From Opitutaceae bacterium (GTDB taxonomy: Bacteria; Verrucomicrobiota; Verrucomicrobiia; Opitutales; Opitutaceae): a stretch of DNA of 64,000 nt. Location of the stretch: contig JBDZVH010000003.1 of assembly GCA_040255565.1 (NCBI GenBank), positions 677,228-741,227 of the forward strand, in the 5' to 3' direction. The position numbers and the translations under genes were made by a program. This document shows positions 26,010 to 48,686 of this stretch, one piece after another (positions within the stretch are counted from its first letter, which is position 1; each line of letters begins with the position of its first letter). The notes below the pieces were generated by a model. It had not been told where the DNA came from and did not search any database. It was given only the letters and a program-made list of their open reading frames with translations.

Positions 26010-26214
26010 GAGCGCTTCCGAGCAAATCGAACCGCGTCCTCCGCGCCAAGATCAGGAACCACGAAAGACACGAAAAGCATACCCGCCCACGGAATACACA
26101 GAACACACGGAAAATACCCGGATCCAAGATTCTGAATTCCGTGTTTTCCGTGTGTTCCGTGGGCTCCTCTGTCTGGGTCGATTTTCGTGTGTTTCGTGTC
26201 TTTCGTGGTTCCTC
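26010..26214. repeat. structured intergenic repeat, family B
   Basis: Perfect 21-bp outer inverted repeat GGAACCACGAAAGACACGAAA (26055..26075) / TTTCGTGTCTTTCGTGGTTCC (26192..26212). It encloses inner arms CCCACGGAATACACAGAACACACGGAAAA / TTTTCCGTGTGTTCCGTGGG. Confidence 0.88.
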
Positions 26215-27360: not shown

Positions 27361-27361
27361 G

Positions 27362-28513: not shown

Positions 28514-28521
28514 CCTGGTGA

Positions 28522-32160: not shown

Positions 32161-32178
32161 GGCAAAATGGAATTCGAG

Positions 32179-35422: not shown

Positions 35423-35609
35423 AGGGACGAAGGCTCACACGGACACGTGTAACAATACACGGGCCACACACCAGTGCCATGCCGCCCAATCCGTTGAGAC
35501 AGCAGATGACCGGTCCGCATCGCGGCCGCTAGCAGGCGCTGGCAGACGGCGAGCGTGGGAAGCGGACGTGGCGTGAAGGGACATGGGGGCGAAGCGGCGC
35601 GGCAGGACC

Positions 35610-36893
35610 TCAATGCATGTATTTCCGAATATTGATGATCTGGCCGGTGTCGTTCGGCTGGGTGTACGCAACGATCGTCTCGGCGACGTCGGTCGGTTCG
35701 AGGGGGGTCTTGTTGGTCACGACCGCGGTCGAAATCATCTTCGTGTTCACACAGCCGGGATTGATGCAGTTGATCAGCACGCCGCGCTCGCGCAGCAGGA
35801 TCGGCGCGATGCCTTCCACGAAATTGTTCACCGCCGCTTTCGACGCGGAGTAGATCGGAATATTGTCCCGGCCTTTCATCGCGGAGCTCGATCCCACGAT
35901 CACGATCGCACCGCCTCGCATCGCTCTGCGCGCGAGATCGGTCACGGCCACCACCGAGCGGAAATTCACTGCAAACATCTCGTCCACACCGGCGAGATCG
36001 TTGCCGTTGTTCAAAATCCCGGCCGTGTGAATGATCGCGTCCCACGGCTGCACGAACGCTTCCGGAATCTCCCGGCGGGCCAGGTTCCATTCGTTCCGTG
36101 TGGGCGCCGTGATCGCCGCTCCACGCTCGCGCAACCCCTTCGCCACGACGGCGCCGATGCCGCCAGTCGCGCCGAGCAACAGCACCTTTTTGCCGCTGAG
36201 ATCAGGCGCGGGGAGCTCGCGCGACGGACGATACTGCAGGATGCGCTCCGCCACGAAGAGGTCCTGCGGATACGTAAGTTTCAGGTTGAAGGGCGAGCCG
36301 GGAACGATCCGGCAGGAGCCGCCGGCCCGGAGAAAGACGCTCACGTCGTCCGACGCGTTGAGCTGACCGGCCGCGCGACGGTAGGCATCGCAAATCGCGG
36401 CATAGCGGAAGCCCTGCGGAGTCTGGCCGCGCATCAACTTCCGGCGGTCGGGGATCGCCTCCACCATGCCGTCCGCGACCTGCACGATCGTATCGTCGGC
36501 GGGAATACAGACGTCGACCGACTCGTGCGTCTGCAGCGCCTCCATGCAATTGCGCAGGATCTCCGTCGTCACGAAGGGGCGCGCCGCATCGTGGATCAGC
36601 ACGAGATCGGTGTCCGGATCGCAGGCCTGCAGCGCCCTCAACGTCGACTCGTTGCGCGTCTCGCCACCGAGGACGTTGATGTCGCCGATCGCCGCGCGCG
36701 GGTTTTCCATCCATTCGGGCGAGAGCACGACCACGATCTTCGCAAACAGGCCCGACTCCCGAAACGTCGCGACGCTGTGCTCGATCACCATACGTCCGTT
36801 GAGCAGGCAGAACTGCTTCGGCACGTCGGCCTCGAAACGGTTGCCGGATCCGCCGGCGAGGATGATCCCGACAATCTTCTGCTTAGTCGTCAT
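35610..36893 (-). CDS. IspD/TarI-type cytidylyltransferase fused to a short-chain dehydrogenase: Bcs1-like CDP-ribitol synthase candidate
   Basis: 427 aa. N-terminus: GIILAGGSGNRFEADVPKQF...LIHDAARPF...RGQTPQGF (IspD/TarI motifs). C-terminus: LLLGATGGIGAVVAKGL...YSASKAAV (SDR TGxxxGxG and YxxxK). The domain order matches what I recall for Haemophilus Bcs1/Acs1. Confidence 0.75.
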   Translation of the reverse strand: MTTKQKIVGIILAGGSGNRFEADVPKQFCLLNGRMVIEHSVATFRESGLFAKIVVVLSPEWMENPRAAIGDINVLGGETRNESTLRALQACDPDTDLVLIHDAARPFVTTEILRNCMEALQTHESVDVCIPADDTIVQVADGMVEAIPDRRKLMRGQTPQGFRYAAICDAYRRAAGQLNASDDVSVFLRAGGSCRIVPGSPFNLKLTYPQDLFVAERILQYRPSRELPAPDLSGKKVLLLGATGGIGAVVAKGLRERGAAITAPTRNEWNLARREIPEAFVQPWDAIIHTAGILNNGNDLAGVDEMFAVNFRSVVAVTDLARRAMRGGAIVIVGSSSAMKGRDNIPIYSASKAAVNNFVEGIAPILLRERGVLINCINPGCVNTKMISTAVVTNKTPLEPTDVAETIVAYTQPNDTGQIINIRKYMH

Positions 36894-39800
36894 GCCACCC
36901 TCCTCTCTTGCGCGGCCCGGTGTTCCGCATCGAGCCGCTCTTCGATGGTCCGCTTGATCGCCGTAGCCACTCCCTCTTCGGGTAAATGCATATAGTCCTT
37001 GTAGGCCGCGCGCCGCGCGGGCCCGCCTTCGTCTCGACCAGCAGCAACGTCGTCAAGAAAGGCTTTGATCTCAGATTCCTCCGTCGCGCGTGCGCAATGG
37101 CTGTGCACGAACTCGCCGTCTGCATTAAGCCCTGGACCGTTTGGATTGTGCAAATAGAGCAACGGTCTCCCCGTGCCCGCGTATTCGAGAACGAATGACG
37201 ACGCATCCGTGAGGAGCGCCGAAGCATACGCGAACACCGGCAGATAACTCGGACGGCGATCGATCAGGATGTTGCCGGCCGCGGCACAACGCTCGAGGAA
37301 ACCGGCGATCTGCTCCGCGGTGAGAATCTCCCGCTGCTCCAGCGTGGCGAAAAATAGCGGATGCGGCCGTATCACGAACGCGAGATCCTGCCGCCGCGCG
37401 AACTCCGCGGGCAAAAACTCCTGCCAGCGCAAAAACGTCGAATAGCCCTTGCCGAAAGCGGAGCCGTCCCGCCGCACATCGAACTGCGGATTCCAGAAAA
37501 CCATTCTCCGCCCGGCGACGAAACGCTCCAGCTCTTCGTCGTGCACGGACGCGAGGTGGCGCAGGTTGTCCATTTTCGGATGACCGGTCACCGTCACGTG
37601 GGCATCGCCCGCTTCGCAGAGTTTCGCAAAGGTCGCGCGGTGCCTGGTGCTGCGCGCAAACACCGCCCACGCGAGTTGCTGCGTCGTGAGGTTCACCTGC
37701 ATCGTGGCGTTCTCCAAGCCGCCCCCGATCTCGAGCGCATAAGGGATGTAGGCGATCCGCGGCACCGAGCGGATGATCTCGTGTGTGCACCAACCCTCCG
37801 GCCGGCTGACGTCGTATGGATTTTGCACGAAGACGACGTCCGCACAACCCGGCTGCAAGCGAACTTCGGACCAGTGCAGATGGGGGATGCCTTCCTTTTT
37901 CAGGAAATCGAAAACTGCATTTCGCTCCTCGTCTCTGGTGTAATACGGGTGGTTGTAGGGCAGCGCGACCACGGTGACCTCCCACGAGGAATCCGCAGCA
38001 AACGCACGATATACCGGCGCGGTGCTCGGCCAGAACGGCCCGTGCTGCACGACGAACATGACGCGACGGCGTCCGCCTGGCGACGGAGCGGAAACGTCAC
38101 CGGAACCACCAACCGCACGTTGATGAAGTTTAAGCGCGTCCAGCACGCGGCCTTGCCGCTTCACCGCGTGGCCGTTCCACAGGAGCGGTTGCGGATCGTG
38201 AGGCGCAAGCAAATGGGCGCGTTGAAACGCATTCGCGGCGGCCTCGTAGCGCTGGGCGTCGAACAAACTCTTTCCCAACGCAAACCACGATGGACGATGC
38301 CGCGAATCGAGCCGTACAGCGGCTTCGAACGCCGCGATCGCCTCCTCGAGCTTGCCCGCTTCGCGCAACGTCACGCCAAGCTCGCATTTCCACTCGACAT
38401 TTTTCGGATCAAGATGGCCCGCCAGTTTGAACGCCACCAGCGCGCCGTCAAAGCGTCGTATCCCGCGAAATCCTCGTCCGAGCAGCCCGTAGGCGGTCAC
38501 GTTTTTGTTGTCCATCTTCACCGCGCGCTCCGCCAATGAGGCCGCCGCCGCGAAATCCTCCTGCGCGAGCCGCTCCGCGGCGTTCTTCAATAATTCCGGC
38601 AGATCGGCCGCCTGGCCTTCGACCGGAACCGCATCGCCGCGCGCGAACAGCGCGTGCCCGCCGCCCTGCGGCACGAGCCCGCGCTCCTGAAGCTGTTTCG
38701 CCAAGGCGGGCAGTTCGCTCGCGGCCGCGTCCCAGCACCACACCCGGGCAGCGCTTTTCGCGAACTCCCCGCTCACCTGCGTGCGGCTGCAAATCACGAG
38801 ATCGGCCGCCGTGGCCGCCCTGCGCCCGACGTGCAGGCGCGGCAATGTGCCGTAAAGGTCCACCACCTCGGCGGGCACCGACGCATCGCACGCGATCGTC
38901 ACGCTTTCCTGAGTGCGATGCAGTTCTTGCATCGTCTCGTAAACGGCGGCGGCTTGATTGAGTCGCAGCTTGTCGCCGCCGAACCACACGCGAGCGCCGC
39001 TCCCCCGCTCGAGCGAAAACTCCGGCCGCGTCCGGCCATCGAACGCCAGCGCGCGAAACGCTTCGCGCCGCCGCGCGTCGTTGAAATGCTCATCGAGCCA
39101 CTTCGCTCCGGCGGCCCCGATCGCCGCCGTTTCGGACCGATGCGCCAAAGCGTGGGCGGCGCGTTCTGCGAGTTCCTCAGGCGAGCGGTAGGTAAGCATC
39201 TCGCGACCGTCGGCGAGCAACGCCGTGAGTCCCGACTCAGGCGCGAGGACATCCGTCAACAACGCCGCTCCGCTCGCGAGCACCTCGAACACGCGGAGAT
39301 TCAGATCGCCGTTGAGGCTCGCATTGAAGCCGATGAGCGACGAACCGTAGAACTTCAGCGCCGCCGCCTGTGGCAGCGGTTGCACGCGGAGCGGGAGCTT
39401 GCGCGCCGCCAGCGCGTCAGCCAGCCGCTGGCGCCGCGGATGATGTTTCCCGAGTTGCCCGACGAAGCCGATGTGCGGCGCGCGTGTCTTCTGCCGCGCA
39501 GCGCGCACCGCGTCGTCGCCATGCGGGAAGGTCAGTCCGGGAAACCAAAAGAGATTCTGCACTCCGGCCGCCTGAAAAAAACCCGCGTGGTGCCGGTCAT
39601 ACAACAACACCACCCGCGTATAGGGCTCGCTCGCCGCATAACGCAGCATCTGCGAGATCGGCTGCTGCAGATGATGCGTGTCCGCCACGAGCAGCACGCG
39701 TGGACACGAAAACTTCGCGAGCCCGCGCGGCGTGTTGCGCCAGCTCGAGTCCACGAGGGAAACGACCACGTCGGGTTGCTGCTCCGGCGGAAGCTTTGCC

Positions 39801-39967
39801 GCAATCGCCGCGAGATCGTACTGACCGATCGGCGTCCGCAGCGAAATCCACCGGCCGTCCGGCGCCCGCTGGTCTTCCCAGTCCGGCCCGCACACCACCT
39901 GCTCGTCGCCGAGCCGCGGCGGAGCCATGTAATGCGCGGGAGAACCTGTCGCGAAGAGGACGCGCAT
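36890..39967 (-). CDS. giant modular glycan-assembly protein: CgeB-like GT module - TPR block - TagF-like CDP-alditol phosphotransferase domain
   Basis: 1025 aa. The N-terminal module is paralogous to 28522..32160 (MRVLFATGSPAHYMAPPRL...NASLNGDLNLRVFEVLASGAALLTD). TPRs follow (DPKNVEWKCELGVTLREAGKLEEAIAAFEAAVRLD...). The C-terminal roughly 380 aa (VFVQNPYD...VTGHPKMD...FVIRPHPLF...LLTDASSFVLEYAGTGRPLLYL) resembles TagF/TarL-type glycerol- or ribitol-phosphotransferases. This call is from memory. Confidence 0.7.
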   Translation of the reverse strand: MRVLFATGSPAHYMAPPRLGDEQVVCGPDWEDQRAPDGRWISLRTPIGQYDLAAIAAKLPPEQQPDVVVSLVDSSWRNTPRGLAKFSCPRVLLVADTHHLQQPISQMLRYAASEPYTRVVLLYDRHHAGFFQAAGVQNLFWFPGLTFPHGDDAVRAARQKTRAPHIGFVGQLGKHHPRRQRLADALAARKLPLRVQPLPQAAALKFYGSSLIGFNASLNGDLNLRVFEVLASGAALLTDVLAPESGLTALLADGREMLTYRSPEELAERAAHALAHRSETAAIGAAGAKWLDEHFNDARRREAFRALAFDGRTRPEFSLERGSGARVWFGGDKLRLNQAAAVYETMQELHRTQESVTIACDASVPAEVVDLYGTLPRLHVGRRAATAADLVICSRTQVSGEFAKSAARVWCWDAAASELPALAKQLQERGLVPQGGGHALFARGDAVPVEGQAADLPELLKNAAERLAQEDFAAAASLAERAVKMDNKNVTAYGLLGRGFRGIRRFDGALVAFKLAGHLDPKNVEWKCELGVTLREAGKLEEAIAAFEAAVRLDSRHRPSWFALGKSLFDAQRYEAAANAFQRAHLLAPHDPQPLLWNGHAVKRQGRVLDALKLHQRAVGGSGDVSAPSPGGRRRVMFVVQHGPFWPSTAPVYRAFAADSSWEVTVVALPYNHPYYTRDEERNAVFDFLKKEGIPHLHWSEVRLQPGCADVVFVQNPYDVSRPEGWCTHEIIRSVPRIAYIPYALEIGGGLENATMQVNLTTQQLAWAVFARSTRHRATFAKLCEAGDAHVTVTGHPKMDNLRHLASVHDEELERFVAGRRMVFWNPQFDVRRDGSAFGKGYSTFLRWQEFLPAEFARRQDLAFVIRPHPLFFATLEQREILTAEQIAGFLERCAAAGNILIDRRPSYLPVFAYASALLTDASSFVLEYAGTGRPLLYLHNPNGPGLNADGEFVHSHCARATEESEIKAFLDDVAAGRDEGGPARRAAYKDYMHLPEEGVATAIKRTIEERLDAEHRAAQERRVA

Positions 39968-39977: not shown

Positions 39978-42338
39978 TCAGCAGCCCAGCCGCGCCGCCA
40001 GTCCCGAAATCTCAGGATGATCCGGCACGTTTTCCTTCAGTGCCTTCAACGCGTCCTGCGCGAGATCGAACACGCCCGCGCGCTCCGCCAGATCGATCAG
40101 CATCAACCACCCGTCCGCCTGCCGCGGATCGAGCCGCAAGCTCGTCTCCAAGGCCTGGATCGATGCCTCTTGCTGCCCGTTCTGCTGCAGCGCCTTCGCC
40201 AGATCCGCCCAACGGGCGGCATCCGCGTCGCTGGCTTCCACCGAAGCCAACAAATAAGTCACCGCCCGCGCTGTCCGTCCGCTGACCAGCAACGCTCGGC
40301 CTAGCAGTGCCCGCGCCGCCGCACATGCGGGATCCAGTCGCAACGCTCGTCGCGCTTCCTCCACGGCAGCCGCGCCATCTTCCGTCAGCAACGCCTCGCC
40401 GCGGACCAGATGGTTCTTCAACTCACCGTCCGAAACTCCAGCCGCGAGCGGTTCGCGCCGGGCGCGGAAACGCTCGTTGCCGAGCCGCACCACTTCGTCG
40501 AAGGCCATCTCGAGCAGGTCGCCCAGCGCATCGGCCGCCGCCAGTGCATCGAGCGGCCGGGGCAGCGCGCCGGCGCGTTCGCGAATCGCGTTCCGAAACG
40601 GATCCGCCTCGCCGGCCTGGCTAGCCCGCTTGGCGGCAAGTTCGATCCACGCGTCCGTATCGCGAGCCACGAGTTCGTCCAGTTTCAGCGAACGAAGCAG
40701 GGCCGCGACCCGCCGGTCGCGCAACGTGTCCCCGGCCAGCGCCACCACCGGCACGCCCGCCTGCAGCGCCGCGAGCGCCAGGCTGTCATCGGAAATCGAA
40801 TACAAGTCGAGCTGCACGTCGGCGACCGCCGCCAGCCGCTCGAAATCGGCCAGGCCCGGCAACGGTGCGGGCGAAAGGATCAAGCGGTCGCCCGCCACAC
40901 CGTGCGCCGCGAGCGCCCGGTCGAAGCCCGCCGCGATCGCCGCCAGCCGCGCCTCGTCCATCGGGCCATCGCCCATCCGCTGAAGCACCACCTGGCTGCC
41001 CGGCACGCGTTGCAGTAGCCGCGCCAGCAGATCCTGTGTTTCCGGCAACAGGCTTTCCCAACCGCCGCCACTCACGAACAGCGTGCCCTCCGCGGGCAGC
41101 CCGAAATCGGCGCGGGTCACCGCTTCCGCTGCAACGTGCGGATCCAGACGCTCGAACGTCCGCGCCGGGCCGGGGACGACTCCCAAGCGCTCGGAGAACT
41201 CCGCCGCGAGGGTCGCCGGTTCCGCGTCCGCTCCGGTCACGAAAAGATCGATCGTGTTCAGTCCCGTCGTCGCCCCGTGACGCGCGCTCGTGACCGCTTG
41301 CAGCGGCGCAAGCCGGGCCGCCGCGAGCCGGGCGATCTCACCGGTCGATCCCGTGATTTCGTCTTCAAAAACCAGCACATCGAGCGCGGCATCGGCCAGC
41401 ATCAACTTCTGATCCTCGATGTCCGCCGGCAGCACTTGAAAACCCTGCGTCCGCTGACGGGCGTGGTTCTCGTTGCGCGAATCCGTCGGCGTGAGCACGA
41501 ACACACTCGTTTCGAACCGCTCCGGATCCAGTTCCGTGAAAAGCGCCAGCGTCGCCGTCGTGGCAATCGTTTCCTCGAACGACGGCACCACAAATCCCAC
41601 CCGCAGTTTCCGTCCTTCCCGCGGCAGCGGCGGATATGCCGGCGCCGGCGCCTGCCGGCCCTGACGCAACATCACGCGTGCGTGCAATTCCGCCACGCGG
41701 CGCAAGCCCGAGCGGCTCAACTTCAAGCGCGGGAAATGCTCCTCCGGGCGATAATGGTTCAGAGCCGCGCGCACCACCGCCGAGCCGGGATTCATCTCCT
41801 TCCAGCGCGCCAGCGCCTCCAGATGCCGCTCCGAGTGCTGCAAAAATTCTTCCGCCTGCCCCGGCGCGACGAAACCCGACGGCACCGCAAACAGCCACGC
41901 CGCGTAGTCTTCGCTCAGCCAATCGGGAACGAGATCCAGCGTCGGCGCCGACGGACAATGCCACGCGGGAGCCAGCAACATCATTGCCACCACGCCTGGC
42001 CAGCCTTTCGCCGATGGCGCTCCCGGCGGCAGCGTCGCCGCCAGGCGTGTCGGCACGTCGGTCGCACTCAGCTCGCGCGCCAGAGCGATCGCCTCCGCGA
42101 CGTCCGGCGCCTTCGGCTGCCCGCGCTCCAGCTTCGCCACCCAGGCCGCTGCGGTCACCAGCGCGTCGACCGCCGTCCGCCATGACGCCTCGTCTTCGGG
42201 GCGGCTCAGCACGTGTGCGACGGCGGCGCGCGCCTGCTCGATCACCGTTCCGCCACCGTTCACGGACTGCTCAGAATCGCCGTCCCTGACGGCCAAAATC
42301 TCGGGGCTCGGACTGGACGAAAGCGCAAGGGAAGTCAT
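39978..42338 (-). CDS. divergent, domain-permuted GT41-like protein (GT core first, TPRs C-terminal)
   Basis: 786 aa. The middle region is colinear with the GT41 paralogs (LRVGFVVPSF...DLFVTGADAEP...LLQRVPGSQVVLQ...). The core motif is degraded: LDLYSISDDSLALAALQAGVPVVALAGDTLRDRRVAALL instead of ...HGTTTTCEALWMGVPVV... TPRs occupy the last roughly 170 aa. Confidence 0.65.
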   Translation of the reverse strand: MTSLALSSSPSPEILAVRDGDSEQSVNGGGTVIEQARAAVAHVLSRPEDEASWRTAVDALVTAAAWVAKLERGQPKAPDVAEAIALARELSATDVPTRLAATLPPGAPSAKGWPGVVAMMLLAPAWHCPSAPTLDLVPDWLSEDYAAWLFAVPSGFVAPGQAEEFLQHSERHLEALARWKEMNPGSAVVRAALNHYRPEEHFPRLKLSRSGLRRVAELHARVMLRQGRQAPAPAYPPLPREGRKLRVGFVVPSFEETIATTATLALFTELDPERFETSVFVLTPTDSRNENHARQRTQGFQVLPADIEDQKLMLADAALDVLVFEDEITGSTGEIARLAAARLAPLQAVTSARHGATTGLNTIDLFVTGADAEPATLAAEFSERLGVVPGPARTFERLDPHVAAEAVTRADFGLPAEGTLFVSGGGWESLLPETQDLLARLLQRVPGSQVVLQRMGDGPMDEARLAAIAAGFDRALAAHGVAGDRLILSPAPLPGLADFERLAAVADVQLDLYSISDDSLALAALQAGVPVVALAGDTLRDRRVAALLRSLKLDELVARDTDAWIELAAKRASQAGEADPFRNAIRERAGALPRPLDALAAADALGDLLEMAFDEVVRLGNERFRARREPLAAGVSDGELKNHLVRGEALLTEDGAAAVEEARRALRLDPACAAARALLGRALLVSGRTARAVTYLLASVEASDADAARWADLAKALQQNGQQEASIQALETSLRLDPRQADGWLMLIDLAERAGVFDLAQDALKALKENVPDHPEISGLAARLGC

Positions 42339-42397
42339 GGGACCCTCGTGATTGCAAGTTTCGGGCCGAGCCGATGAACACAGTTACAAGTTACTTA

Positions 42398-42426
42398 ATT
42401 ATAGCGGTTTAATGCTATTTTTTGAA
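42398..42426 (-). promoter_or_regulatory. sigma70-like internal promoter candidate in an AT-rich spacer
   Basis: The minus strand reads TTCAAA-N17-TATAAT, with a perfect -10 hexamer. It sits in the 146-bp AT-rich gap between 42485 (upstream gene end) and 42338 (downstream gene start). Confidence 0.4.
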
Positions 42427-42484
42427 ACGAACTCCTCGCCTTTTCGCCGCGCCCCGCGCGACGGCGGCAGAAATTTCCCCGTGG

Positions 42485-44404
42485 TCAGGACACCGACGTC
42501 ATCGCCGCGCGCTCAGGGGTCGCCTGGTCACCCGCGGCTCCACCGCACCACCTTCGCCAGCACTCCCGCAGCGCCTCGCCAAAACGCCTCGCCTGCGCCG
42601 CGTGATCCATCAAGGCCGCCCCCTGCAATGCTTCACGCAAGGCACGGCTCGCATCTTCCGTGCGCCGGCCCGCGGCGGCGAGCCCGGCTGCGATCCGCGC
42701 ATAATCGTCCGCGGTGTTGGCCACCCATTCGGCTCGGTCCACCGATGCCAGCAGGCTCGCACCCACGCGCGACACGTGCCGGTCGCCCGCGAGCGTCACC
42801 ACCGGCACACCCATCCACAGCGCCTCACAGGTCGTCGTCGTGCCGTGATACGGATACGTGTCCAGCGCCACATCGATGCGACGATACGCGGCCAGATGCG
42901 CCGCGAGACCCACGATCCGGCCAAGCAACTCGACGCGTTCCGCCGCGATTCCGCAGCGCGCGAAGCGTTCGCGGCACCACGCCTGATTCGCCGGCGTGTC
43001 GAGTCCCTGCGATTTCAACAGCAGCCGTGCGTCCGGCACCGCCGCCAGGATCCGCGACCACAGCGTGAGCGTCGTGTCGCTGACCTTCGAAAAATTATTG
43101 AAACAGCCAAACGTCACCGGCCCCTCCGCCTCCCGCAACGGCTCCGGCGCGTCGCGCGGCGGTGCATACGCCCAGGCCGTCGGCGCAAATCGCACCAGCC
43201 GCTCCGTGTGAAAGCGGTCCGCGTCGCCCGCCGGATCTGCGATCGCATCCGTGAAACGATAATCCATCTCCGCCAGCCCCGTCGTATCCGGATAACCGAG
43301 ATACGTGATCTGCACCGGTGCGAGCCGGCGCGCAAACAGCGGCAGGCGATTGAACCCGGTATGACCGGCCAGATCGATGACGACGTCCGGCGCATCGGCC
43401 CGCATCGCCGCTTCGACCCGGCCGTCCGGCCAACCCGCCACGTGACGCCATTGTGCCGCCTGCGCCCGCAGCCGCTCCGACATCGCGTCCACCCGCGCGT
43501 GATCGTGATACAGGAAAATCTCGAACTGGGTCCGATCGAGTTGCGCCAGCAGCGGCTCCAGAAAATACGCGACCGAGTGCGCCCGCAGATCCGGCGACAA
43601 AAACGCCACACGCAACCGCCGCTCCGGATCCGGCAGGTGCGCAAACTTCGGCGAGGGTGAAAGCCCCATCGCGTCGCGCACCGTGTGCCCGAAGGCCTGG
43701 TGTTCGCGCAGCAACGCTTCGCGCTCAACTCCGTCGAGATAGTGCCGACTCAACAGCCGCGCACTGCGCGCTTCATGATTCGCCGGGTGTTTCGCGAGCA
43801 CCTCGTCATAAGCGGCGACCGCCTCGTCGACGCGATGCGCCTGCTGCAACGCCAGCGCGCGGCCCGTGAGCGCCTGCGCCTCGTCGGGATTGATCGCAAG
43901 GGCCCGGTCGAAACAAGCGACGCCTTCGTCCGGATTGCCCGACTGGGTCAACGCCACGCCGAGATTCGCCCACCCGTCCGCCGCGCGGGGCTGCAGCTCC
44001 GTCACCCGGCGAAAATGCGGCACCGCGGCGGCGAAACCTTCCAGTGCCGCCGCCAGCTCGCCGAGAGCGTAGTGGGCGTCGGCATTCGCCGGCTCAAGCG
44101 CCACGACGCGTCGGGCGGCGTCGCGCGCCTCCGCGTGACGGCCGGATTTCTTCAACGCCTCCGCCAGGCGCAACGCGCACGCCGCCGAGCGCGGATTCAG
44201 CTGCAGCGCCCGAACGAGAAACCGGGCCGCGTCCTCGCAGCGCCCCTGCTGCAGCGCGAGGAAACCGGAGAGTTGAAACGCATCGAAGCTGCGCGGGGCC
44301 GCCGCGCGGGCGTGCGCATAGATCTTTTCCGCCTCGTCCAGACGTCCGGCGCGATGACGCGTCAGGGCATCCTGCAGCAGATTCGCGAGCTGTGCTGGAG
44401 TCAT
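42485..44404 (-). CDS. TPR - GT41 (O-GlcNAc-transferase-like, SPINDLY family) glycosyltransferase, paralog 1
   Basis: The start was trimmed to the ATG at 44404, an ATGA overlap with the upstream stop. N-terminal TPRs. The C-terminus has YLGYPDTTG...DYRFTDAIADP... and YPYHGTTTTCEALWMGVPVVTLAGDRHVSRVGASLL. This matches the OGT catalytic-core signature as I recall it from human OGT (NGHTTGMDVLWAGTPMVT). Confidence 0.8.
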   Translation of the reverse strand: MTPAQLANLLQDALTRHRAGRLDEAEKIYAHARAAAPRSFDAFQLSGFLALQQGRCEDAARFLVRALQLNPRSAACALRLAEALKKSGRHAEARDAARRVVALEPANADAHYALGELAAALEGFAAAVPHFRRVTELQPRAADGWANLGVALTQSGNPDEGVACFDRALAINPDEAQALTGRALALQQAHRVDEAVAAYDEVLAKHPANHEARSARLLSRHYLDGVEREALLREHQAFGHTVRDAMGLSPSPKFAHLPDPERRLRVAFLSPDLRAHSVAYFLEPLLAQLDRTQFEIFLYHDHARVDAMSERLRAQAAQWRHVAGWPDGRVEAAMRADAPDVVIDLAGHTGFNRLPLFARRLAPVQITYLGYPDTTGLAEMDYRFTDAIADPAGDADRFHTERLVRFAPTAWAYAPPRDAPEPLREAEGPVTFGCFNNFSKVSDTTLTLWSRILAAVPDARLLLKSQGLDTPANQAWCRERFARCGIAAERVELLGRIVGLAAHLAAYRRIDVALDTYPYHGTTTTCEALWMGVPVVTLAGDRHVSRVGASLLASVDRAEWVANTADDYARIAAGLAAAGRRTEDASRALREALQGAALMDHAAQARRFGEALRECWRRWCGGAAGDQATPERAAMTSVS

Positions 44405-46281
44405 CGCACGGCTTCGTTGCTGGCGCTCGCCGATCGCTCGCACGCGTTGACCCAACACGCGCGCAACGCGGCGCCAAACCGCGCGGCCTGGCCGGCATGA
44501 TCCAGCAGCGGCGAGCGCTGCATCGCCGTTCGCACGGATGCAGGATCGACCGGGTCAGCCGCAAGCCGCGCGGCGATTCGCACGTATTCATTTTCGTCCG
44601 ACGCCACCCATTCGGGATGTCCGACGGCATGGAGCAGGCTCACGCCCACGCGCGCCGCGTGGCGATCGCCCGCGAGCGCCACCACCGGCACGCCCATCCA
44701 CAGCGCCTCGCAGGTCGTGGTCGTGCCTTGATACGGGAATGTGTCGAGCGCCACGTCGACGCGTCGATAAAGCGCCAGATGCGCCGCCGAATCCGGCAGC
44801 CGCCCCACCAGTTCCAGCCGTTCCACGGGAAGTCCGGCCCGCCGAAAACGCGTCAGCCACCTGTCGCGGGTCGCGGATTCGCCCAGACCTTCGCCCTTGA
44901 TCAACAGCCGCGACGCCGGCACCTCCGCGAGCACGCGGGCCCACAGCGCGAGCACCCGCTCCGTGATTTTCGCGAGATCGTTGAAGGACCCAAACGTCAC
45001 GGGCCCGGGGAGGCGGCGCTCGCGCGGCATCGGCGCAGCGACCGGCGGCCGATACGACCACGCGACCGGCGCGAAGCGCACCAGTTGCTCGGTCGCGAAT
45101 GGCTCCGCGTCACCCGGAGGATCCGCGATCGCGTCGGTGAAACGATAATCCATCGCCGCCACGCCGGTCGTATCCGGATATCCAAGATACGTGACCTGCA
45201 CCGGCGCCACGCGACGCGCGAAGACGGGCAGGCGGTTACACATGCCGGTGTGCCCGGCCAGATCGATCAGAATATCCGGCGCATCCGCGAGCAGCGTCGC
45301 CTCGACAGCCGCATGCGTTTGTCCAACCAGGTTGCGCCACCGCGCACCGCGCGATCGCAGCCGCGCCGACACCTCGTCTTCACGGAAGTGATCGTGATAA
45401 AGCCACACTTCGAACTCCCTTTCGTCGAGATGCTCGAGCAGCGGTTCGAAAAAATACGCGCAGGAGTGCTCGCGCAGGTCCGGCGACCACACCGCCACTT
45501 TCAGCCGCCGCGCCGGATCGCGTTCATTCGCGAAAGTCCGTGACGGCGGTGCGCCCAGCATCCGGCCAAACGCGGCGTGCTCCTCGAAAAGCCATTCGCG
45601 CGACAGGCCGTCCACGCACTGCAGCACCATCAATCGGCAGCTCCGGGCTTCGGCATCGGCCGGTTCAGCCGTGAGCACGCGATCGTAATCCTCGATCGCC
45701 TCCGGAATTCGTTTCAACCGATGCAACACCTGCGCGCGCGCCAGCCGCGCGGACGCGAGATTCGCCTCGAGTGCCAGCGCTCGTTCCTGGCACGTCAGCG
45801 CCGCCTCGAGCTCTCCTTGCAGCGCGAGGGTCAGCCCGTAATTGCACCACAGGACGGCGCTGCGCGCCGACGCGGCCACCGCTTTTTGATGGCAGGCGAC
45901 CGCCTCGGCGAGCCGGTCCTGCGTTTTCAAACAGTAAGCCAGTTGATCCCAGGCCTCCGCGGCGCGAGGATCGCGGGCGGTCACGCGGCGCAACCGCTGC
46001 TCGGCATCCGCCGGGCGGCCCGCCGCCAGCAGCGCCGCGCCCAGTCGCATCTCGCAGACCGAAGACGACCGATCCAGCCGATGCGCTTTCTCCAACAGCT
46101 CGACCGCCTGCGCCGCGCGCCCCTGCTGATGCGCCAGCAATCCCGAAAGGTGCAGGGCGTCAAAATCGAGCGGCTTCGCCACGCGCACCTGTCGATACAG
46201 TGTCTCCGCCGCCTCGAGCCGACCGGCGCGATGCAGCGCCACGGCCTCTTGCAGGATCGATTGTCGCTTGGCGGGAGACAT
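44401..46281 (-). CDS. TPR - GT41 (OGT-like) glycosyltransferase, paralog 2
   Basis: 626 aa with the same architecture: FPYQGTTTTCEALWMGVPVVALAGDRHAARVGVSLL. Confidence 0.8.
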   Translation of the reverse strand: MSPAKRQSILQEAVALHRAGRLEAAETLYRQVRVAKPLDFDALHLSGLLAHQQGRAAQAVELLEKAHRLDRSSSVCEMRLGAALLAAGRPADAEQRLRRVTARDPRAAEAWDQLAYCLKTQDRLAEAVACHQKAVAASARSAVLWCNYGLTLALQGELEAALTCQERALALEANLASARLARAQVLHRLKRIPEAIEDYDRVLTAEPADAEARSCRLMVLQCVDGLSREWLFEEHAAFGRMLGAPPSRTFANERDPARRLKVAVWSPDLREHSCAYFFEPLLEHLDEREFEVWLYHDHFREDEVSARLRSRGARWRNLVGQTHAAVEATLLADAPDILIDLAGHTGMCNRLPVFARRVAPVQVTYLGYPDTTGVAAMDYRFTDAIADPPGDAEPFATEQLVRFAPVAWSYRPPVAAPMPRERRLPGPVTFGSFNDLAKITERVLALWARVLAEVPASRLLIKGEGLGESATRDRWLTRFRRAGLPVERLELVGRLPDSAAHLALYRRVDVALDTFPYQGTTTTCEALWMGVPVVALAGDRHAARVGVSLLHAVGHPEWVASDENEYVRIAARLAADPVDPASVRTAMQRSPLLDHAGQAARFGAALRACWVNACERSASASNEAVR

Positions 46282-46287
46282 GAACCC

Positions 46288-46788
46288 TCAGGCCGTGATC
46301 GGGTTGGCGGCGAACGCCTCCGCGTTGACCAGTTCGTCGATCCGCTGCTGCAGATCCGCCCGACCGGGCGCGAGAGCCAGCGCGCGACGCAGGCACGCGA
46401 TCGCCTCGGCCACCGGGTGGCCCAGCGCACAATGGACATTGGCGAGATTTTCCCACGCTTCGGGATACCCGCGATGTGCCGTCAGCGCCGTGCGCAGCGG
46501 TCGCTCCGCCTCTTCATAACGCCCCGCATCCGCGAGCGCCATGCCGAGGAAAAGTTTGCACTCCACCGAGCGCGGATCGAGGCGCTGCGCGCGCGAAAGA
46601 AACCCGATCGCCTCCTCCAGATGTCCACCGCGCTGAAACGCGAGCGCACCGGCAAGATACCAGCCATCGAACAACCGCGGCGCGGTCCGGCAGACCTGCG
46701 CATAGAGTCGGGCGGCTTCGTCGATCTGCCCGGCCTTGTGCTGGGCGAGTGCGGTGTCGAGGAGTTGGTGGATTTTTTTCGCGTTCAT
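46288..46788 (-). CDS. stand-alone TPR protein
   Basis: The start was trimmed from ORF 46288..46902 to the ATG at 46788 (MNAKKIHQLL...), an ATGA overlap with the upstream stop. The 166 aa are TPRs only and resemble the N-terminal halves of the flanking GT41 paralogs. Confidence 0.7.
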   Translation of the reverse strand: MNAKKIHQLLDTALAQHKAGQIDEAARLYAQVCRTAPRLFDGWYLAGALAFQRGGHLEEAIGFLSRAQRLDPRSVECKLFLGMALADAGRYEEAERPLRTALTAHRGYPEAWENLANVHCALGHPVAEAIACLRRALALAPGRADLQQRIDELVNAEAFAANPITA

Positions 46789-48686
46789 AAAGAGACCAGT
46801 GAAGAGGCCGGGCGCGCGGTATCCGCCGCCGGCTCGATCGCCGCCCGCCAGCACTCGCGCAGCGCCGCACCGAAACGCGCCGCCTGGCCGGCGTGATCGC
46901 ACAGCGGCGAACGCGACATCCGCGAGCGCAGTTCGGCGCGCAACGTCGCCAGGCGATCCGCATCGCGGGCGAGCCGCAGCGCGATTTCAAGATATTCGTC
47001 CGGCGTCCGCGCCACCCAATCGGCGCAACCGACCGCGCTCAACAACGACAGGCCCACGCGCGAGGCATGGCGATCGCCCAGCAGCGCGACCACCGGCACG
47101 CCCATCCACAACGCTTCGCACGTCGTCGTCGTGCCGTGATAGGGAAACATGTCGAGCGCCACGTCGACGCGCCCATAAAGCGCGAGATGCGACGCGGTGT
47201 CCGGCGTATGCGCCAGCAGCTCGACGCGATCGCCCGCGAGACCCACGGCCTCCAGGCGACGCAGCAGCGGTTCACGCACCGCCGGTTCGGCCAACCCGCC
47301 GGCCTTGATCAAGAGGCGGGAATCCGGCAGCTGCGCGAGCAGACGCGCCCACAGCCGCAGCATCGTATCGGTCGCCTTCGCGAAATTGTTGAACGAACCG
47401 AATGTCACACCGCCCCGCGTCAGACACGGCGGCGGCGAGGGCTCCGGCGCGCTCGCGGGCGGCAGATAACACCAGGCCACGTCCGCGAAGCGCACGAGTT
47501 TCTCCGTGTGAAACCTGTCCGCCTCGCCCGCCGGATCCGCGATCGCATCCGTGAAACGATAATCCATCGCCGGGACGCCCGTGGTGTTGGGATAACCGAG
47601 ATAAGAGATCTGCACCGGCGCCAATCTGCGGGCGACCAGCGGGAGCCGGTTCAACCCGGTGTGGCCGGCCAGGTCGACCAGAAGGTCCGGCGCGTCGGCG
47701 CGTATCGTTTTTTCCACGACATCGTCCGCCTGTCCGGCGAAGTGCCGCCAGAGTGCCGCCTTGGAACGCAGCGCCGCGGAAACGCGATCGACCACCGGGT
47801 GATCGTGATACAGCACGATCTCGAACGCGGCCGGATCGAGATGGCGCAACAACGGCTCCAGAAAATAGGCCACCGAATGCTCGCGCAGGTCCGGCGAAAG
47901 AAAGGCGACGCGCAACCGCCGCGCGGGATCGTCCGCCCGGATCCGCCGCGGCGGGGCCGGCAGTTCGCGTCCGAAGGCCACATGCTCCGCCAGGATCTCC
48001 TCGCGGCTGCGTCCGTCGAGACAGTTGAGCACCATCAGCCGATAACTTCTCGCTTCGAGTTGCCGCGGATCGCGCGCGAGCACCGCCGCGAATTCCGCCT
48101 CCGCTTCAACCACGCGATGACATTTGTAGAGCGTCATGGCACGACCGGCTCTCGCCCGCAGATGGCCGGGATCGAGCTCGAGCGCGCGATCGAAACATGC
48201 GAGCGCCTCGGTCGGACCGCCTTGAAGGGCAAGGGTCGCGCCGAGCGCCTGCCAGCCCTGCGCGAAATCGGGCTTCAACTTCACGGCCAGCCGCTGCGCG
48301 TCGATGGCTTCTGCGATGCGCCCGCTCGTCTTCAACACCAGTGCCAGATGATGCCACGCCTCAGCGTGCCGCGGCACGGCCGCGACCACGCGTCGCAGGA
48401 TCGCCTCGGCCTCCGCCGTCCGACCGCACGCGATATTCGCGACGGCAAGACCGAACGCCGTCTGGTGCGACGCCGGGCTGAGCTTCAACGCCTGTGCGAG
48501 CCAGCGCGTCGCCTCTTCCGTTTTCCCCGCCAGCAAGGCCGTCATGCCGGCCTGATGCCACGCCTGCACATCCGACGGCACGAGCGCGCACGCCCGTTGA
48601 TAGCACGCCAGCGCGTCCGCCAAACGTCCTTTGCGGCGCCAGGCGTCACCTTCGGTTAACAGGTGTTGATGTCTAGCGGGCGGCAT
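46785..48686 (-). CDS. TPR - GT41 (OGT-like) glycosyltransferase, paralog 3 (first gene of the island)
   Basis: 633 aa: FPYHGTTTTCEALWMGVPVVALLGDRHASRVGLSLL. N-terminal TPRs. Confidence 0.8.
   Translation of the reverse strand: MPPARHQHLLTEGDAWRRKGRLADALACYQRACALVPSDVQAWHQAGMTALLAGKTEEATRWLAQALKLSPASHQTAFGLAVANIACGRTAEAEAILRRVVAAVPRHAEAWHHLALVLKTSGRIAEAIDAQRLAVKLKPDFAQGWQALGATLALQGGPTEALACFDRALELDPGHLRARAGRAMTLYKCHRVVEAEAEFAAVLARDPRQLEARSYRLMVLNCLDGRSREEILAEHVAFGRELPAPPRRIRADDPARRLRVAFLSPDLREHSVAYFLEPLLRHLDPAAFEIVLYHDHPVVDRVSAALRSKAALWRHFAGQADDVVEKTIRADAPDLLVDLAGHTGLNRLPLVARRLAPVQISYLGYPNTTGVPAMDYRFTDAIADPAGEADRFHTEKLVRFADVAWCYLPPASAPEPSPPPCLTRGGVTFGSFNNFAKATDTMLRLWARLLAQLPDSRLLIKAGGLAEPAVREPLLRRLEAVGLAGDRVELLAHTPDTASHLALYGRVDVALDMFPYHGTTTTCEALWMGVPVVALLGDRHASRVGLSLLSAVGCADWVARTPDEYLEIALRLARDADRLATLRAELRSRMSRSPLCDHAGQAARFGAALRECWRAAIEPAADTARPASSLVSL

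What the first reader, a model, noticed from the sequence alone, without database searches (positions are those of the whole stretch)
39978..48686. Tandem expansion of TPR-GT41 (OGT-like) paralogs with one permuted, motif-degraded copy and a free-standing TPR module
- Three consecutive genes (46785..48686, 44401..46281, 42485..44404) encode N-terminal TPRs plus a GT41 core. All three retain the ...HGTTTTCEALWMGVPVV...DRHxSRVGxSLL signature.
- Between two of them sits a 166-aa TPR-only protein (46288..46788). It looks like an amputated N-terminal half of a paralog.
- The fourth gene (39978..42338) keeps the GT41-like core but has lost the HGTTT motif (reads SISDDSLALAALQAGVPVV). It carries its TPRs at the C-terminus instead.
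- Start and stop codons overlap as ATGA at 44401-44404 and 46785-46788.

Multiple protein-directed OGT-like enzymes next to two flagellin paralogs suggest several possibilities: site or paralog specialisation, successive glycan priming steps, or a catalytically dead adaptor.
Basis: partly seen in the sequence, partly recalled or inferred. Interest (0 to 1): 0.65.

Follow-up and report, generated by a model that had tools for sequence, protein, structure and literature searches.

The report
SPINDLY-type flagellin glycosyltransferase cluster, one dead
A soil Opitutaceae bacterium carries, in its motility region, three old paralogs of SPINDLY-type protein glycosyltransferases, a conserved small helper-like repeat protein and a related enzyme that has lost its active site; together they most likely decorate flagellin with sugars.

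Summary
The five genes are real, at the stated coordinates, on the minus strand. The reading needs correcting in four places.

1. **G1, G2 and G3 are SPINDLY-clade GT41 enzymes, not OGT/SEC-type.** Every donor-binding and catalytic residue of Arabidopsis SPINDLY (SPY) is kept. That includes the guanine-reading Lys and the Tyr that excludes GlcNAc.
2. **The triplication is old.** The paralogs are 53-56% identical. One-to-one orthologs of all three occur in at least three other Opitutaceae contigs.
3. **The 166-aa TPR protein (T) is not an amputated relic.** It belongs to a conserved stand-alone family of 48 clusters at 49-76% identity. It models as four TPRs plus a capping helix. It lies directly next to SPY-like GT41 genes in the window and in 4 of 5 other contexts.
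4. **G4 is not a degraded copy of the tandem set.** It belongs to a separate GT41 lineage with C-terminal TPRs that lies beside flagellin genes across Opitutia. Most members keep a conserved active site. The Opitutus clade, including this window and O. terrae PB90-1, has lost it while the helical domains stay conserved. G4 is therefore a probable pseudoenzyme.

The link to flagellin rests on synteny only. Donor sugar and acceptor remain inferred.

Verdict: a new variant of a known kind, of moderate interest.

The parts
46785..48686 (-). G1: SPY-clade TPR-GT41 glycosyltransferase, 633 aa, about 6 N-terminal TPRs plus a GT-B catalytic domain. First gene of the G1-T-G2-G3 operon.
   Evidence: ORF. 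PF13844 at 124 bits. SPINDLY 7y4i E 1.2e-110 over residues 13-616. All SPY key residues kept. Orthologs at 64-67% in L001, L002 and L018.
46288..46788 (-). T: stand-alone 166-aa protein of 4 TPRs plus a capping helix. Its ATGA start overlaps the G1 stop, and it ends 6 bp before G2.
   Evidence: TPR Pfam hits only. 48 homologous clusters of 156-193 aa at 49-76% identity. Mean column identity 64%. AF2 pLDDT 96 with 9 helices. Directly next to SPY-like GT41 genes in L018, L020, L021 and JGI 3300041965.
44401..46281 (-). G2: SPY-clade TPR-GT41, 626 aa. Its orthogroup is the one found in single-copy genomes such as O. terrae. Its sugar pocket differs from G1 and G3: Cys at SPY V497, Asp at N662, Gln at A745.
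   Evidence: O. terrae ortholog at 58-59% identity.
42485..44404 (-). G3: SPY-clade TPR-GT41, 639 aa. Its ATG at 44404 overlaps the G2 stop. Last gene of the operon.
   Evidence: Orthologs at 63-66% in L001, L002 and L018.
42339..42484 (-). AT-rich 146-bp intergenic region between G3 and G4, and the likely start of a second transcription unit. It holds a sigma-70-like TTCAAA-17-TATAAT (42426-42398) and a GG-N10-GC element (42367-42353). It is also the point where island content differs between relatives.
   Evidence: An HDOD gene is inserted here in L001, L002 and O. terrae, and L018 has a different G4 type downstream.
39978..42338 (-). G4: 786-aa GT41-fold protein. Layout: N-terminal helical domain (26-226), GT-B core (about 240-620), C-terminal TPRs (640-785). 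Donor-binding and catalytic residues are lost, so it is a probable pseudo-glycosyltransferase or scaffold.
   Evidence: PF13844 at 52.6 bits. AF2 pLDDT 85, pTM 0.84. Foldseek top hits are all GT41: XcOGT, TtOGT, SPY, hOGT. K665->S, N661->G, H728->D, Y744->I, T747-749->D/S/L, H495->T. Clade-wide relaxation at these sites.
36890..39967 (-). Context: a 1025-aa multidomain glycosyltransferase (Glyco_trans_1_2 + TPR + TagF-like) that starts 10 bp after G4. It follows degenerate G4 directly in every locus where the downstream gene is visible.
24694..36893 (-). Context: the rest of the glycosylation island. Genes are GmhA-like, GmhB-like, an unknown 381-aa protein, FkbM methyltransferase with TPR, a 1212-aa GT, a GT2, a 562-aa methyltransferase and an IspD-SDR fusion.
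22532..24413 (+). Presumed acceptors: two 272-aa flagellins, 88% identical, with a Ser/Thr-rich central segment (about residues 165-210 in FlaA ORF numbering; about 137-182 of the 272-aa protein). fliD lies at 20587-22341 on the minus strand.

Best explanation
The region is the protein-directed end of a flagellin O-glycosylation island in an uncultured Opitutaceae (Verrucomicrobiota) bacterium.

**G1-G3.** These are three anciently duplicated, catalytically intact SPINDLY-clade GT41 enzymes. Each most likely uses its N-terminal TPR domain to hold flagellin in the cytoplasm. Each most likely transfers a small sugar from a GDP-linked donor onto Ser/Thr of the flagellins' Ser/Thr-rich central segment. 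Their TPR domains have diverged much more than their catalytic domains, and G2 has a different sugar pocket. The three are therefore more likely to serve different sites or steps than to be redundant.

**T.** This is a conserved stand-alone four-TPR protein. It probably acts as a non-catalytic accessory that binds flagellin, or a TPR-GT, as specificity factor, chaperone or competitor.

**G4.** This belongs to a second GT41 lineage that is tied to flagellin loci and carries C-terminal TPRs. In the Opitutus clade it lost nucleotide-sugar binding and the catalytic Lys but kept its fold and helical domains. It most likely works as a scaffold or adaptor for the large glycosyltransferase encoded directly downstream.

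**Shown:** gene structure, family membership, residue states, conservation patterns and synteny. **Inferred:** flagellin as acceptor, a GDP-sugar donor, division of labour, and adaptor roles.
For: **SPY-type identity of G1-G3**
- G1 gives a full-length match to SPINDLY at E 1e-110.
- D491, H495, S496, N661, K665, K689, H728, Y744, G746, T747-749 and E752 (SPY numbering) are invariant in G1-G3 and 13 relatives. Residue roles are taken from PMC9715652 and PMC10027727.

**Age of the paralogs**
- The paralogs are 53-56% identical, and there are no gene-conversion tracts.
- They form three orthogroups shared with L001, L002 and L018.

**Divergence pattern**
- TPR domains are 39-40% identical; catalytic domains are 61-65% identical.

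**T**
- It belongs to a conserved family.
- It models as a capped TPR fold at pLDDT 96.
- It recurs directly next to SPY-like GT41 genes.

**G4**
- It has the GT41 fold.
- The degenerate clade is monophyletic.
- Identity at key sites is 35% against a 48% background. In canonical G4 it is 98% against 69%, and in SPY-like proteins 100% against 63%.
- Constraint has moved from the catalytic core to the helical and TPR domains. Invariant positions in N-helical / catalytic / C-terminal TPR regions are 14/17/22% in the degenerate clade and 11/42/9% in the canonical clade.

**Flagellin link**
- G4-type genes lie within 10 kb of flagellin or fliD genes in 7 of 15 genome loci. In four (L005, L007, L009, L014) no other identified gene lies between; in L005 the gene follows nine flagellin genes.
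- The window's island sits between fliD/flagellins and chemotaxis/HDOD genes.

**Precedents**
- TPR domains bind flagellin in FlmG and Maf-1, and GlfM is an adaptor.
- SPINDLY-domain GT41 genes have been predicted in enterobacterial flagellin islands.
Against: - There is no biochemical or mass-spectrometric evidence for any substrate.
- The window holds no GDP-sugar synthesis genes such as gmd/fcl. Only GmhA/GmhB-like and CDP-ribitol-type genes are present.
- SPY A731 is Leu in G1 and G2.
- The Asn ladder that SPY and OGT use to hold peptides is largely missing from the TPRs (read off).
- The SPY-like block is always flanked by HK/HDOD signalling genes, so another acceptor is conceivable.
- G4 lies 15 kb from the flagellins in this window.
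- The key-site relaxation in the degenerate clade is only marginal by permutation (7% of random column sets are as low). The stronger argument is which residues are lost.
- No RNA data are available.
Confidence: 0.55

Rival explanations
1. G1-G3 are regulatory protein glycosyltransferases, like plant SPY or animal OGT. They would act on cytoplasmic signalling proteins such as the adjacent HDOD proteins, the hybrid histidine kinase or chemotaxis components, rather than on flagellin.
For: The SPY-like block is flanked by the same PAS-HK and two HDOD genes in the window, L001, L002, L008, L015, L016, L018, L020 and L021. In several loci an HDOD gene sits between the SPY-like genes and G4. Eukaryotic SPY modifies many nucleocytoplasmic proteins.
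Against: In L014 the SPY-like gene lies among island glycosyltransferases with fliD and flagellins at the other end. T homologs also occur next to other glycan-synthesis genes such as NeuB and DegT. The block is contiguous with a large sugar-modification island. The missing Asn ladder argues against promiscuous peptide binding.
Confidence: 0.15
2. G4 is still an enzyme. Its remodelled pocket would use a different donor (for example CDP-ribitol or CDP-glycerol from the island's IspD-SDR gene) or a different chemistry.
For: The ORF is intact and its length is conserved (786-797 aa) across the clade. Ten positions are invariant in the clade but differ from canonical G4, for example R393, Q453 and R454. 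A CDP-alditol pathway gene is nearby.
Against: The 12 donor or catalytic positions are not replaced by a new conserved set. They vary among clade members: K665 becomes S/Q/E/A, and the phosphate loop is S-x-D-D-x-x with variable residues. A further 67 positions that are strictly conserved in canonical G4 are lost. The island already has a TagF-like domain for CDP-alditol transfer.
Confidence: 0.15
3. The three SPY-like paralogs are functionally redundant copies, kept for dosage, with no division of labour. T would be a neutral leftover.
For: All three keep the same catalytic residues. The two flagellins are 88% identical.
Against: One-to-one orthologs of each paralog persist in at least four lineages at 56-69% identity. 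TPR domains have diverged to 39-40% identity. G2-type proteins differ consistently at two pocket residues. T is strongly conserved across 48 clusters.
Confidence: 0.1
4. G1-G3 do not prime the protein. They would extend a glycan that a canonical-type enzyme elsewhere starts, so the GT41 genes act on sugar acceptors.
For: HMW1C-type GT41 enzymes can also form sugar-sugar bonds (citing the ApHMW1C literature). Several large glycosyltransferases are present in the island.
Against: S496 and H495, which position the acceptor Ser in SPY, are invariant. The enzymes carry TPR protein-binding domains. O. terrae has one SPY-like gene and only a degenerate G4, and no other protein-directed candidate is visible in the locus.
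Confidence: 0.1

Closest known systems
Arabidopsis SPINDLY (SPY), GT41 protein O-fucosyltransferase (PDB 7y4i, 8dtf-8dti)
   Same: G1-G3 align over their full length (E 1e-110). They share the N-terminal TPR plus GT-B architecture and the FPY-x-GTTTTCE loop. They also share the catalytic Lys (K665), the guanine-reading Lys (K689), the stacking His (H728), the gate Tyr (Y744) and the S496/H495 acceptor-side residues.
   Different: They have about 6 TPRs instead of 11. The TPR Asn ladder is mostly absent. A731 is Leu in G1 and G2. They are bacterial, encoded as three tandem copies in a motility and glycosylation island, and their presumed acceptor is flagellin rather than many nuclear and cytosolic proteins. 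The donor is untested.
Bacterial GT41 structures XcOGT (2jlb, 2vsn) and Thermobaculum TtOGT (5djs)
   Same: These are the best structural matches to the G4 model (Foldseek E 6e-18 to 4e-17, target TM-score 0.65-0.72). TtOGT is also a strong sequence match to G1 (E 3e-82). The physiological substrates of both are unknown.
   Different: Both keep the catalytic Lys and the phosphate loop, whereas G4 does not. Neither has C-terminal TPRs.
FlmG (Caulobacter) and Maf-1 / Maf-2-GlfM (Shewanella) flagellin glycosyltransferase systems
   Same: Both glycosylate flagellin O-linked in the cytoplasm. A TPR domain binds flagellin, and a small neighbouring non-catalytic factor (GlfM) can supply specificity. 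The logic matches TPR-GT plus T plus G4.
   Different: Their catalytic domains are unrelated (FlmG C-terminal domain; Maf DUF115, GT-A-like) and they transfer nonulosonic acids. GlfM is a four-helix bundle, not a TPR protein. No pseudoenzyme partner is described.
SPINDLY-domain GT41 genes predicted in enterobacterial flagellin glycosylation islands (De Maayer and Cowan 2016, PMC4875605)
   Same: GT41/COG3914 genes lie inside flagellin glycosylation islands, often with FkbM or AdoMet methyltransferases.
   Different: These are genomic predictions only. Most are fused to methyltransferase domains. No tandem paralog sets, free TPR protein or degenerate partner are reported.
GtfA-GtfB (Gtf1-Gtf2) O-GlcNAc transferase complex for streptococcal serine-rich adhesins (from my own knowledge, not checked here)
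   Same: A catalytically inactive GT-B paralog partners an active glycosyltransferase and contributes to acceptor binding. This is the role proposed for G4.
   Different: It is GT4-like rather than GT41, has no TPRs, and acts on an adhesin rather than flagellin. No interaction has been shown for G4.

Membership tests
GT41 (Pfam PF13844 Glyco_transf_41) | Profile match above the curated cut-off | tested here: met
   G1 124.3, G2 121.4, G3 124.3 and G4 52.6 bits against a cut-off of 25.
GT41 (Pfam PF13844 Glyco_transf_41) | GT-B two-lobe catalytic fold preceded by helical repeats | tested here: met
   G4: AF2 model at pLDDT 85, and the top 50 listed Foldseek matches are all GT41 structures. G1: full-length sequence alignment to SPY. 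G1-G3 were not folded.
GT41 (Pfam PF13844 Glyco_transf_41) | Catalytic Lys (hOGT K842 / SPY K665) and phosphate-binding loop (hOGT H920-T922 / SPY T747-T749) | tested here: met
   This row covers G1-G3 and 13 relatives: K and G-T-T-T are invariant. G4 is covered in the next row.
GT41 as an active enzyme (G4 only) | Catalytic Lys, pyrophosphate Asn, base-stacking His, phosphate loop | tested here: not met
   G4 has K665->S, N661->G, H728->D, T747/748/749->D/S/L and Y744->I. Against hOGT: Q839->G, K842->S, K898->L, H901->F, R904->L, H920->D, T922->L, D925->A. G4 has the fold but should not be filed as an active GT41.
SPY-like clan of GT41 (protein O-fucosyltransferases) | Three discriminating residues: K689 / A731 / Y744 in SPY against L866 / R904 / C917 in OGT (PMC10027727) | tested here: inconclusive
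   K689 and Y744 are kept in all three. A731 is Ala in G3 but Leu in G1 and G2. None has the OGT-type Arg. The pattern is mostly SPY-type.
SPY-like clan of GT41 (protein O-fucosyltransferases) | GDP-fucose contact residues S496, V497, N662, K665, H728, T747, T748, E752 | tested here: met
   All are kept in G1 and G3. G2 and its orthologs have Cys at V497 and Asp/His at N662.
SPY-like clan of GT41 (protein O-fucosyltransferases) | Asn ladder in the TPR superhelix for binding extended peptides | tested here: not met
   Where SPY has NNLG repeats, G1 has HHLA / QALG / GRAM (alignment). G2 and G3 each keep one Asn. This was judged by eye from alignments, so it is of moderate reliability.
SPY-like clan of GT41 (protein O-fucosyltransferases) | O-fucosyltransferase activity with GDP-fucose | not testable with these tools
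No GDP-fucose synthesis genes are present in the window.
Flagellin glycosylation island (functional class) | Glycosyltransferase and sugar-modification genes adjacent to flagellin or fliD genes | tested here: met
   The window has fliD and two flagellins, followed by 24 kb of glycosylation genes ending in G4 to G1. G4-type genes lie within 10 kb of flagellin genes in L005, L007, L009, L010, L013, L014 and L015.
Flagellin glycosylation island (functional class) | Flagellin actually glycosylated by these enzymes | not testable with these tools
   This needs mass spectrometry and genetics.
Pseudoenzyme (non-catalytic paralog retained by selection), G4 | Fold and length conserved across species while active-site positions are lost and unconstrained | tested here: met
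   Intact orthologs of 786-797 aa occur in 8 or more genomes, including O. terrae. Key sites are 35% identical against 48% overall, compared with 98% against 69% in canonical relatives. Constraint has shifted to the helical domains.

The most novel reading that the evidence does not exclude
Opitutaceae run a multi-part flagellin glycosylation machine. Its catalytic parts are bacterial SPINDLY-type enzymes that use GDP-sugars. A conserved free TPR protein (T) and a GT41 pseudoenzyme (G4) act as non-catalytic specificity or scaffold subunits. If so, this would be the first assigned function for bacterial SPY-clade enzymes and the first GT41 pseudoenzyme. It would also be a TPR-based counterpart of the Maf-2/GlfM tripartite system.
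Probability: 0.3. Interest if true: 0.75.

Novelty: new variant of a known kind. Interest (0 to 1): 0.55.

Why it matters
Bacterial SPINDLY-like proteins are widespread. The SPY structure papers note that almost none has a known substrate or role.

This work ties a large Opitutaceae SPY-like family (more than 2,600 database hits at E below 1e-60) to a concrete, testable acceptor, flagellin. It also identifies two conserved non-catalytic partners.

A simpler version of the system exists in a cultured, sequenced organism. Opitutus terrae PB90-1 has one SPY-like gene plus the degenerate G4, so the question can be addressed by genetics and mass spectrometry.

Within one protein family there are natural 'active' and 'dead' forms, and in some members a fusion to a GT4 domain. 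This gives a ready-made comparison for how glycosyltransferase pseudoenzymes arise.

Tried and rejected
- **Recent duplication or gene conversion.** DNA repeats among G1-G3 are only 62-78% identical, with no near-identical tracts and no tandem DNA repeats. Rejected.
- **P. aeruginosa FgtA as closest characterised relative.** It is a GT2 enzyme. Rejected.
- **NCBIfam naming.** Only sub-threshold TPR-family and NGT hits appeared, with no specific family for G1, G4 or T.
- **Foldseek of the T model.** It returned only generic TPR proteins: designed CTPRs, the OGT TPR domain and MamA. It gave no functional lead.
- **Expression evidence.** Only DNA metagenome runs (soil, plant, wastewater) hold the sequence, and no RNA runs were found.
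- **Sigma-54-type promoters.** The GG-N10-GC pattern occurs upstream of both G1 and G4. The loose pattern is no commoner in the window than chance (3 against 2.7 expected). The G4 copy also sits only 14 nt from the ATG. This is left as an observation.
- **Circular permutation of G4.** Rejected, because the N-terminal helical domain is still present.
- **A link between the degenerate G4 and having three SPY-like genes.** Rejected. O. terrae has a degenerate G4 with one SPY-like gene, and L018 has G1-T-G2-G3 with a canonical G4.
- **Literature search for a characterised GT41 flagellin glycosyltransferase.** None was found in the held library.

Full report
**1. What is in the sequence**

- G1: 46785..48686, 633 aa.
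- T: 46288..46788, 166 aa.
- G2: 44401..46281, 626 aa.
- G3: 42485..44404, 639 aa.
- G4: 39978..42338, 786 aa.

All show the high third-position G+C (0.76-0.80) typical of genes in this 65% G+C window.

Gene spacing points to two transcription units.
- G1/T and G2/G3 overlap as ATGA, and T ends 6 bp before G2. G1-T-G2-G3 therefore looks like one operon.
- G3 and G4 are separated by an AT-rich 146-bp spacer. It holds the only sigma-70-like promoter match in the region.
- G4 is followed after 10 bp by a 1025-aa glycosyltransferase.

Pfam Glyco_transf_41 is well above threshold in all four large proteins. TPR hits are N-terminal in G1-G3, C-terminal in G4, and cover all of T.

G2 reads YQGTTTT rather than YHGTTTT.

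**2. Context**

The window is a motility region.
- Positions 1-20 kb hold CheR, CheB, CheD, HDOD, CheA, CheW, an MCP, CheX and a sigma-54 activator.
- Next come fliD and two flagellin genes.
- Then follows an unbroken 24-kb run of minus-strand glycosylation genes: GmhA-like, GmhB-like, FkbM methyltransferase with TPR, a 1212-aa GT, a GT2, a 562-aa methyltransferase, an IspD-SDR fusion and a 1025-aa GT with a TagF-like end. The run ends in G4, G3, G2, T and G1.
- Beyond that lie two HDOD genes and a PAS hybrid histidine kinase.

The two flagellins are 272 aa long and 88% identical. FlaA really starts at Met29, position 22532. Both have a Ser/Thr-rich central segment, and most of their differences fall there.

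The best genome matches are Opitutus and Opitutaceae MAGs and Opitutus terrae PB90-1. The sequence itself is found in soil, plant and wastewater metagenomes.

**3. G1-G3 are SPINDLY-type enzymes**

The best solved relative of G1 is Arabidopsis SPINDLY, E 1.2e-110, aligned from residue 13 to 616. Human OGT scores E 4e-69, and there the best-scoring catalytic stretch covers only G1 residues 425-597.

I took residue roles from the two SPY structure papers (PMC9715652 and PMC10027727). I mapped them on an alignment of G1-G3 with 13 relatives from other loci. All of the following are invariant:
- D491, H495 and S496 (acceptor side).
- N661 and K665 (pyrophosphate contact; catalytic Lys).
- K689 (reads the guanine base).
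- H728 (stacks on the base).
- Y744 (clashes with an N-acetyl group).
- G746, T747, T748, T749 and E752.

Of the three residues said to separate SPY-like from OGT-like enzymes, K689 and Y744 are of the SPY kind in all three proteins. A731 is Ala in G3 and Leu in G1 and G2, and never the OGT-type Arg.

I therefore predict a GDP-linked, small (non-N-acetylated) sugar donor. This is inference, because the window has no GDP-sugar synthesis genes.

Two differences from SPY stand out.
- There are only about six TPRs.
- The Asn ladder that SPY and OGT use to grip extended peptides is mostly absent (read).

**4. The expansion is old and maintained**

- G1-G3 are 53-56% identical as proteins and 62-78% identical as DNA in the conserved core, with no conversion tracts.
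- A neighbour-joining tree gives three orthogroups.
- L001 and L002 (Opitutus/Verrucomicrobia MAGs) and L018 (a soil contig) each carry one member of every group in the same order, at 56-69% identity to the window's copies.
- Genomes with one copy (O. terrae, L013, L014) carry the G2 type, which therefore looks ancestral.
- Divergence is concentrated in the TPR domain: 39-40% identity, against 61-65% in the catalytic domain.
- G2-type proteins consistently differ at two pocket residues: Cys at V497 and Asp/His at N662.

This pattern fits retained, non-redundant paralogs that differ in acceptor site and possibly in sugar. It does not fit a recent amplification.

**5. T is a conserved protein family**

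- T is homologous to the N-terminal TPRs of the SPY-like proteins. It is 33-43% identical and colinear from residue 1.
- It has 48 database relatives of the same size (156-193 aa) at 49-76% identity. Mean column identity is 64%, with sharply conserved motifs.
- Its model has four TPRs closed by a capping helix, at pLDDT 96.
- Relatives lie directly beside SPY-like GT41 genes in L018 (G1-T-G2-G3, as here), L021 and a JGI contig, often with overlapping stop and start codons.
- In L020 the order is GT41, HDOD, T, GT41.
- One relative, in L019, sits next to a giant glycosyltransferase and nonulosonic-acid genes, with no GT41 gene in the 16 kb examined.

T is therefore a selected, independent component of such islands and not a truncation product.

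Its role is unknown. I propose an accessory binding factor, by analogy with flagellin-binding TPR domains and with the GlfM adaptor. A competitive, dominant-negative-like regulator is also possible.

**6. G4 is a separate lineage and, in this clade, a probable pseudoenzyme**

*Separate lineage.*
- G4 is only 28-30% identical to G1-G3.
- It has 26 or more full-length relatives, all in Opitutia.
- Some relatives are fused at the C-terminus to a GT4 domain (P0017, P0020-26, L008, L010, L015, L018, L021).

*Fold.*
- The AF2 model (pLDDT 85, pTM 0.84) has a helical N-terminal domain (26-226), a two-lobe Rossmann-type core and C-terminal TPRs.
- Foldseek's top 50 listed matches are all GT41 structures. 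The top hits are XcOGT, TtOGT, SPY and hOGT.
- G4 is therefore not a permutation but a GT41 with extra C-terminal TPRs.

*Linkage to flagellin genes.*
- G4-type genes lie within 10 kb of flagellin or fliD genes in 7 of 15 genome loci.
- In four of these (L005, L007, L009, L014) no other identified gene lies between.
- In L005 the gene directly follows nine tandem flagellin genes.

*Active site.*
- Most members ('canonical') share a tightly conserved active-site signature of their own: H-Q-T / A-K / F-x-G-V-N-S / D. It is 98% conserved, and the Lys is present.
- The window's G4 falls in a monophyletic clade with P0001-P0007, L001-L003 and O. terrae. In this clade all these positions are changed and differ from member to member.
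- Examples: K665 becomes S/Q/E/A, and the phosphate loop becomes S-x-D-D-x-x.
- Against human OGT, the window's G4 lacks Q839, K842, K898, H901, R904, H920, T922 and D925.
- Key-site identity in this clade is 35% against a 48% background. The sister clades show 98% against 69% (canonical) and 100% against 63% (SPY-like).
- A further 67 positions that are at least 95% conserved in canonical members are lost.
- The share of invariant positions has moved from the catalytic core to the helical domains. Values for N-helical / catalytic / C-terminal TPR regions are 14/17/22% in this clade, against 11/42/9% in canonical members.
- The ORF is intact and constant in length in all members.

This is the expected signature of a pseudoenzyme retained for binding or scaffolding.

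Degenerate G4 is followed directly by the 1025-aa-type glycosyltransferase in every locus where the downstream gene is visible: the window, L001, L002, L003 and O. terrae. Canonical relatives are often fused to a second glycosyltransferase. Both facts suggest that G4-type proteins work together with a downstream enzyme.

**7. The island is mosaic**

By its flanking genes and its G1-T-G2-G3 block, L018 is the closest relative of the window. Even so, it carries a canonical G4-GT4 fusion and different downstream genes. O. terrae, L001 and L002 share the window's degenerate G4 cassette. They lack T in the region examined and have an HDOD gene between the SPY-like genes and G4. The G3|G4 spacer is thus a junction between two modules that are inherited independently.

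**8. Comparison with what is known**

- SPINDLY-domain GT41 genes have been noted in enterobacterial flagellin glycosylation islands, from genomics alone (PMC4875605).
- The characterised flagellin glycosyltransferases belong to other families: GT2 (FgtA), Maf and FlmG.
- TPR domains are the flagellin-binding elements of FlmG and Maf-1, and Maf-2 needs the small adaptor GlfM.
- I found no report of a characterised bacterial SPY-clade enzyme acting on flagellin, of a GT41 pseudoenzyme, or of the T family. The held library is incomplete, so this absence is weak evidence.

**9. Verdict**

Identities, residue states, conservation and synteny are shown. The acceptor (flagellin), the donor class (GDP-sugar), the division of labour among G1-G3 and the adaptor roles of T and G4 are inferred.

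This is a new variant of a known kind of system, the flagellin glycosylation island. It has two unusual conserved non-catalytic components and a cultured organism in which it can be tested. Interest is moderate, at 0.55.

Noticed in passing
window 59842-63962 (to the end of the window): A large CRISPR array with the 36-nt repeat GCTTCAACGGAGCCGCGGTCGTGAGACCGCGGAGAT and a period of 72-74 nt. It holds dozens of units in at least two blocks. The six-frame ORFs listed here are translation artefacts of the repeats. No cas genes were looked for.
   Followed up: partly
window 35610-36893 and 36890-39967: An IspD-like cytidylyltransferase fused to a short-chain dehydrogenase (CDP-ribitol-synthase-like) lies next to a giant GT with a TagF-like CDP-alditol phosphotransferase end. 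The O. terrae island (L016) has a homologous IspD-SDR fusion, and its GT1025 homolog matches over almost the full length. Together these suggest an alditol-phosphate in the glycan.
   Followed up: partly
window 24694-26009: GmhA-like (sedoheptulose-7-P isomerase, just under the equivalog cut-off) and GmhB-like phosphatase genes lie directly after the flagellins. They hint at a heptose component. No kinase or nucleotidyltransferase for the pathway was seen in the window.
   Followed up: partly
window 22403-22429 and 22448-22532: The first flagellin ORF is over-extended, and its real start is Met29 at 22532. A sigma-28-type element, TAAA-N15-GCCGATAT, lies upstream.
   Followed up: partly
window 42353-42367 and 48783-48797 (minus strand): Similar GG-N10-GC (sigma-54-like) elements occur upstream of G4 (GGCCCGAAACTTGCA) and G1 (GGCCCAAGTTTTGCA). 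They are two of only three matches in the window, but the loose pattern is expected 2.7 times by chance. The G4 copy is only 14 nt from the ATG.
   Followed up: partly
L005 1-9538: Nine tandem flagellin genes (65-74% identical to the window's) lie directly upstream of a canonical G4-type gene in a groundwater Opitutia MAG.
   Followed up: no
L008, L010, L015, L018 (12403-15975), L021 (7448-12796): Canonical G4-type proteins are fused to a C-terminal GT4 (Glycos_transf_1) domain, giving proteins of 1087-1782 aa. This is a Rosetta-stone hint that G4-type modules act together with a second glycosyltransferase.
   Followed up: partly
L018 about 6540; L001 about 5100-5630: There is an apparent frameshift in the G1 ortholog of L018 and in the N-terminus of the G2 ortholog of L001. 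These could be assembly errors or real disruptions.
   Followed up: no
window 4899-5771, 48949-49941, 49973-50953, 55563-56489: Four HDOD-domain genes are present in one 64-kb motility window. Two of them, plus a PAS hybrid histidine kinase, are conserved neighbours of the SPY-like block in nearly all related loci.
   Followed up: partly
window 26215-27360 and 19850-20590: Two conserved proteins (381 aa and 246 aa) have no Pfam or NCBIfam match. The 381-aa one recurs in related islands: L007 at 65% identity, with partial matches in L003 and L016.
   Followed up: no
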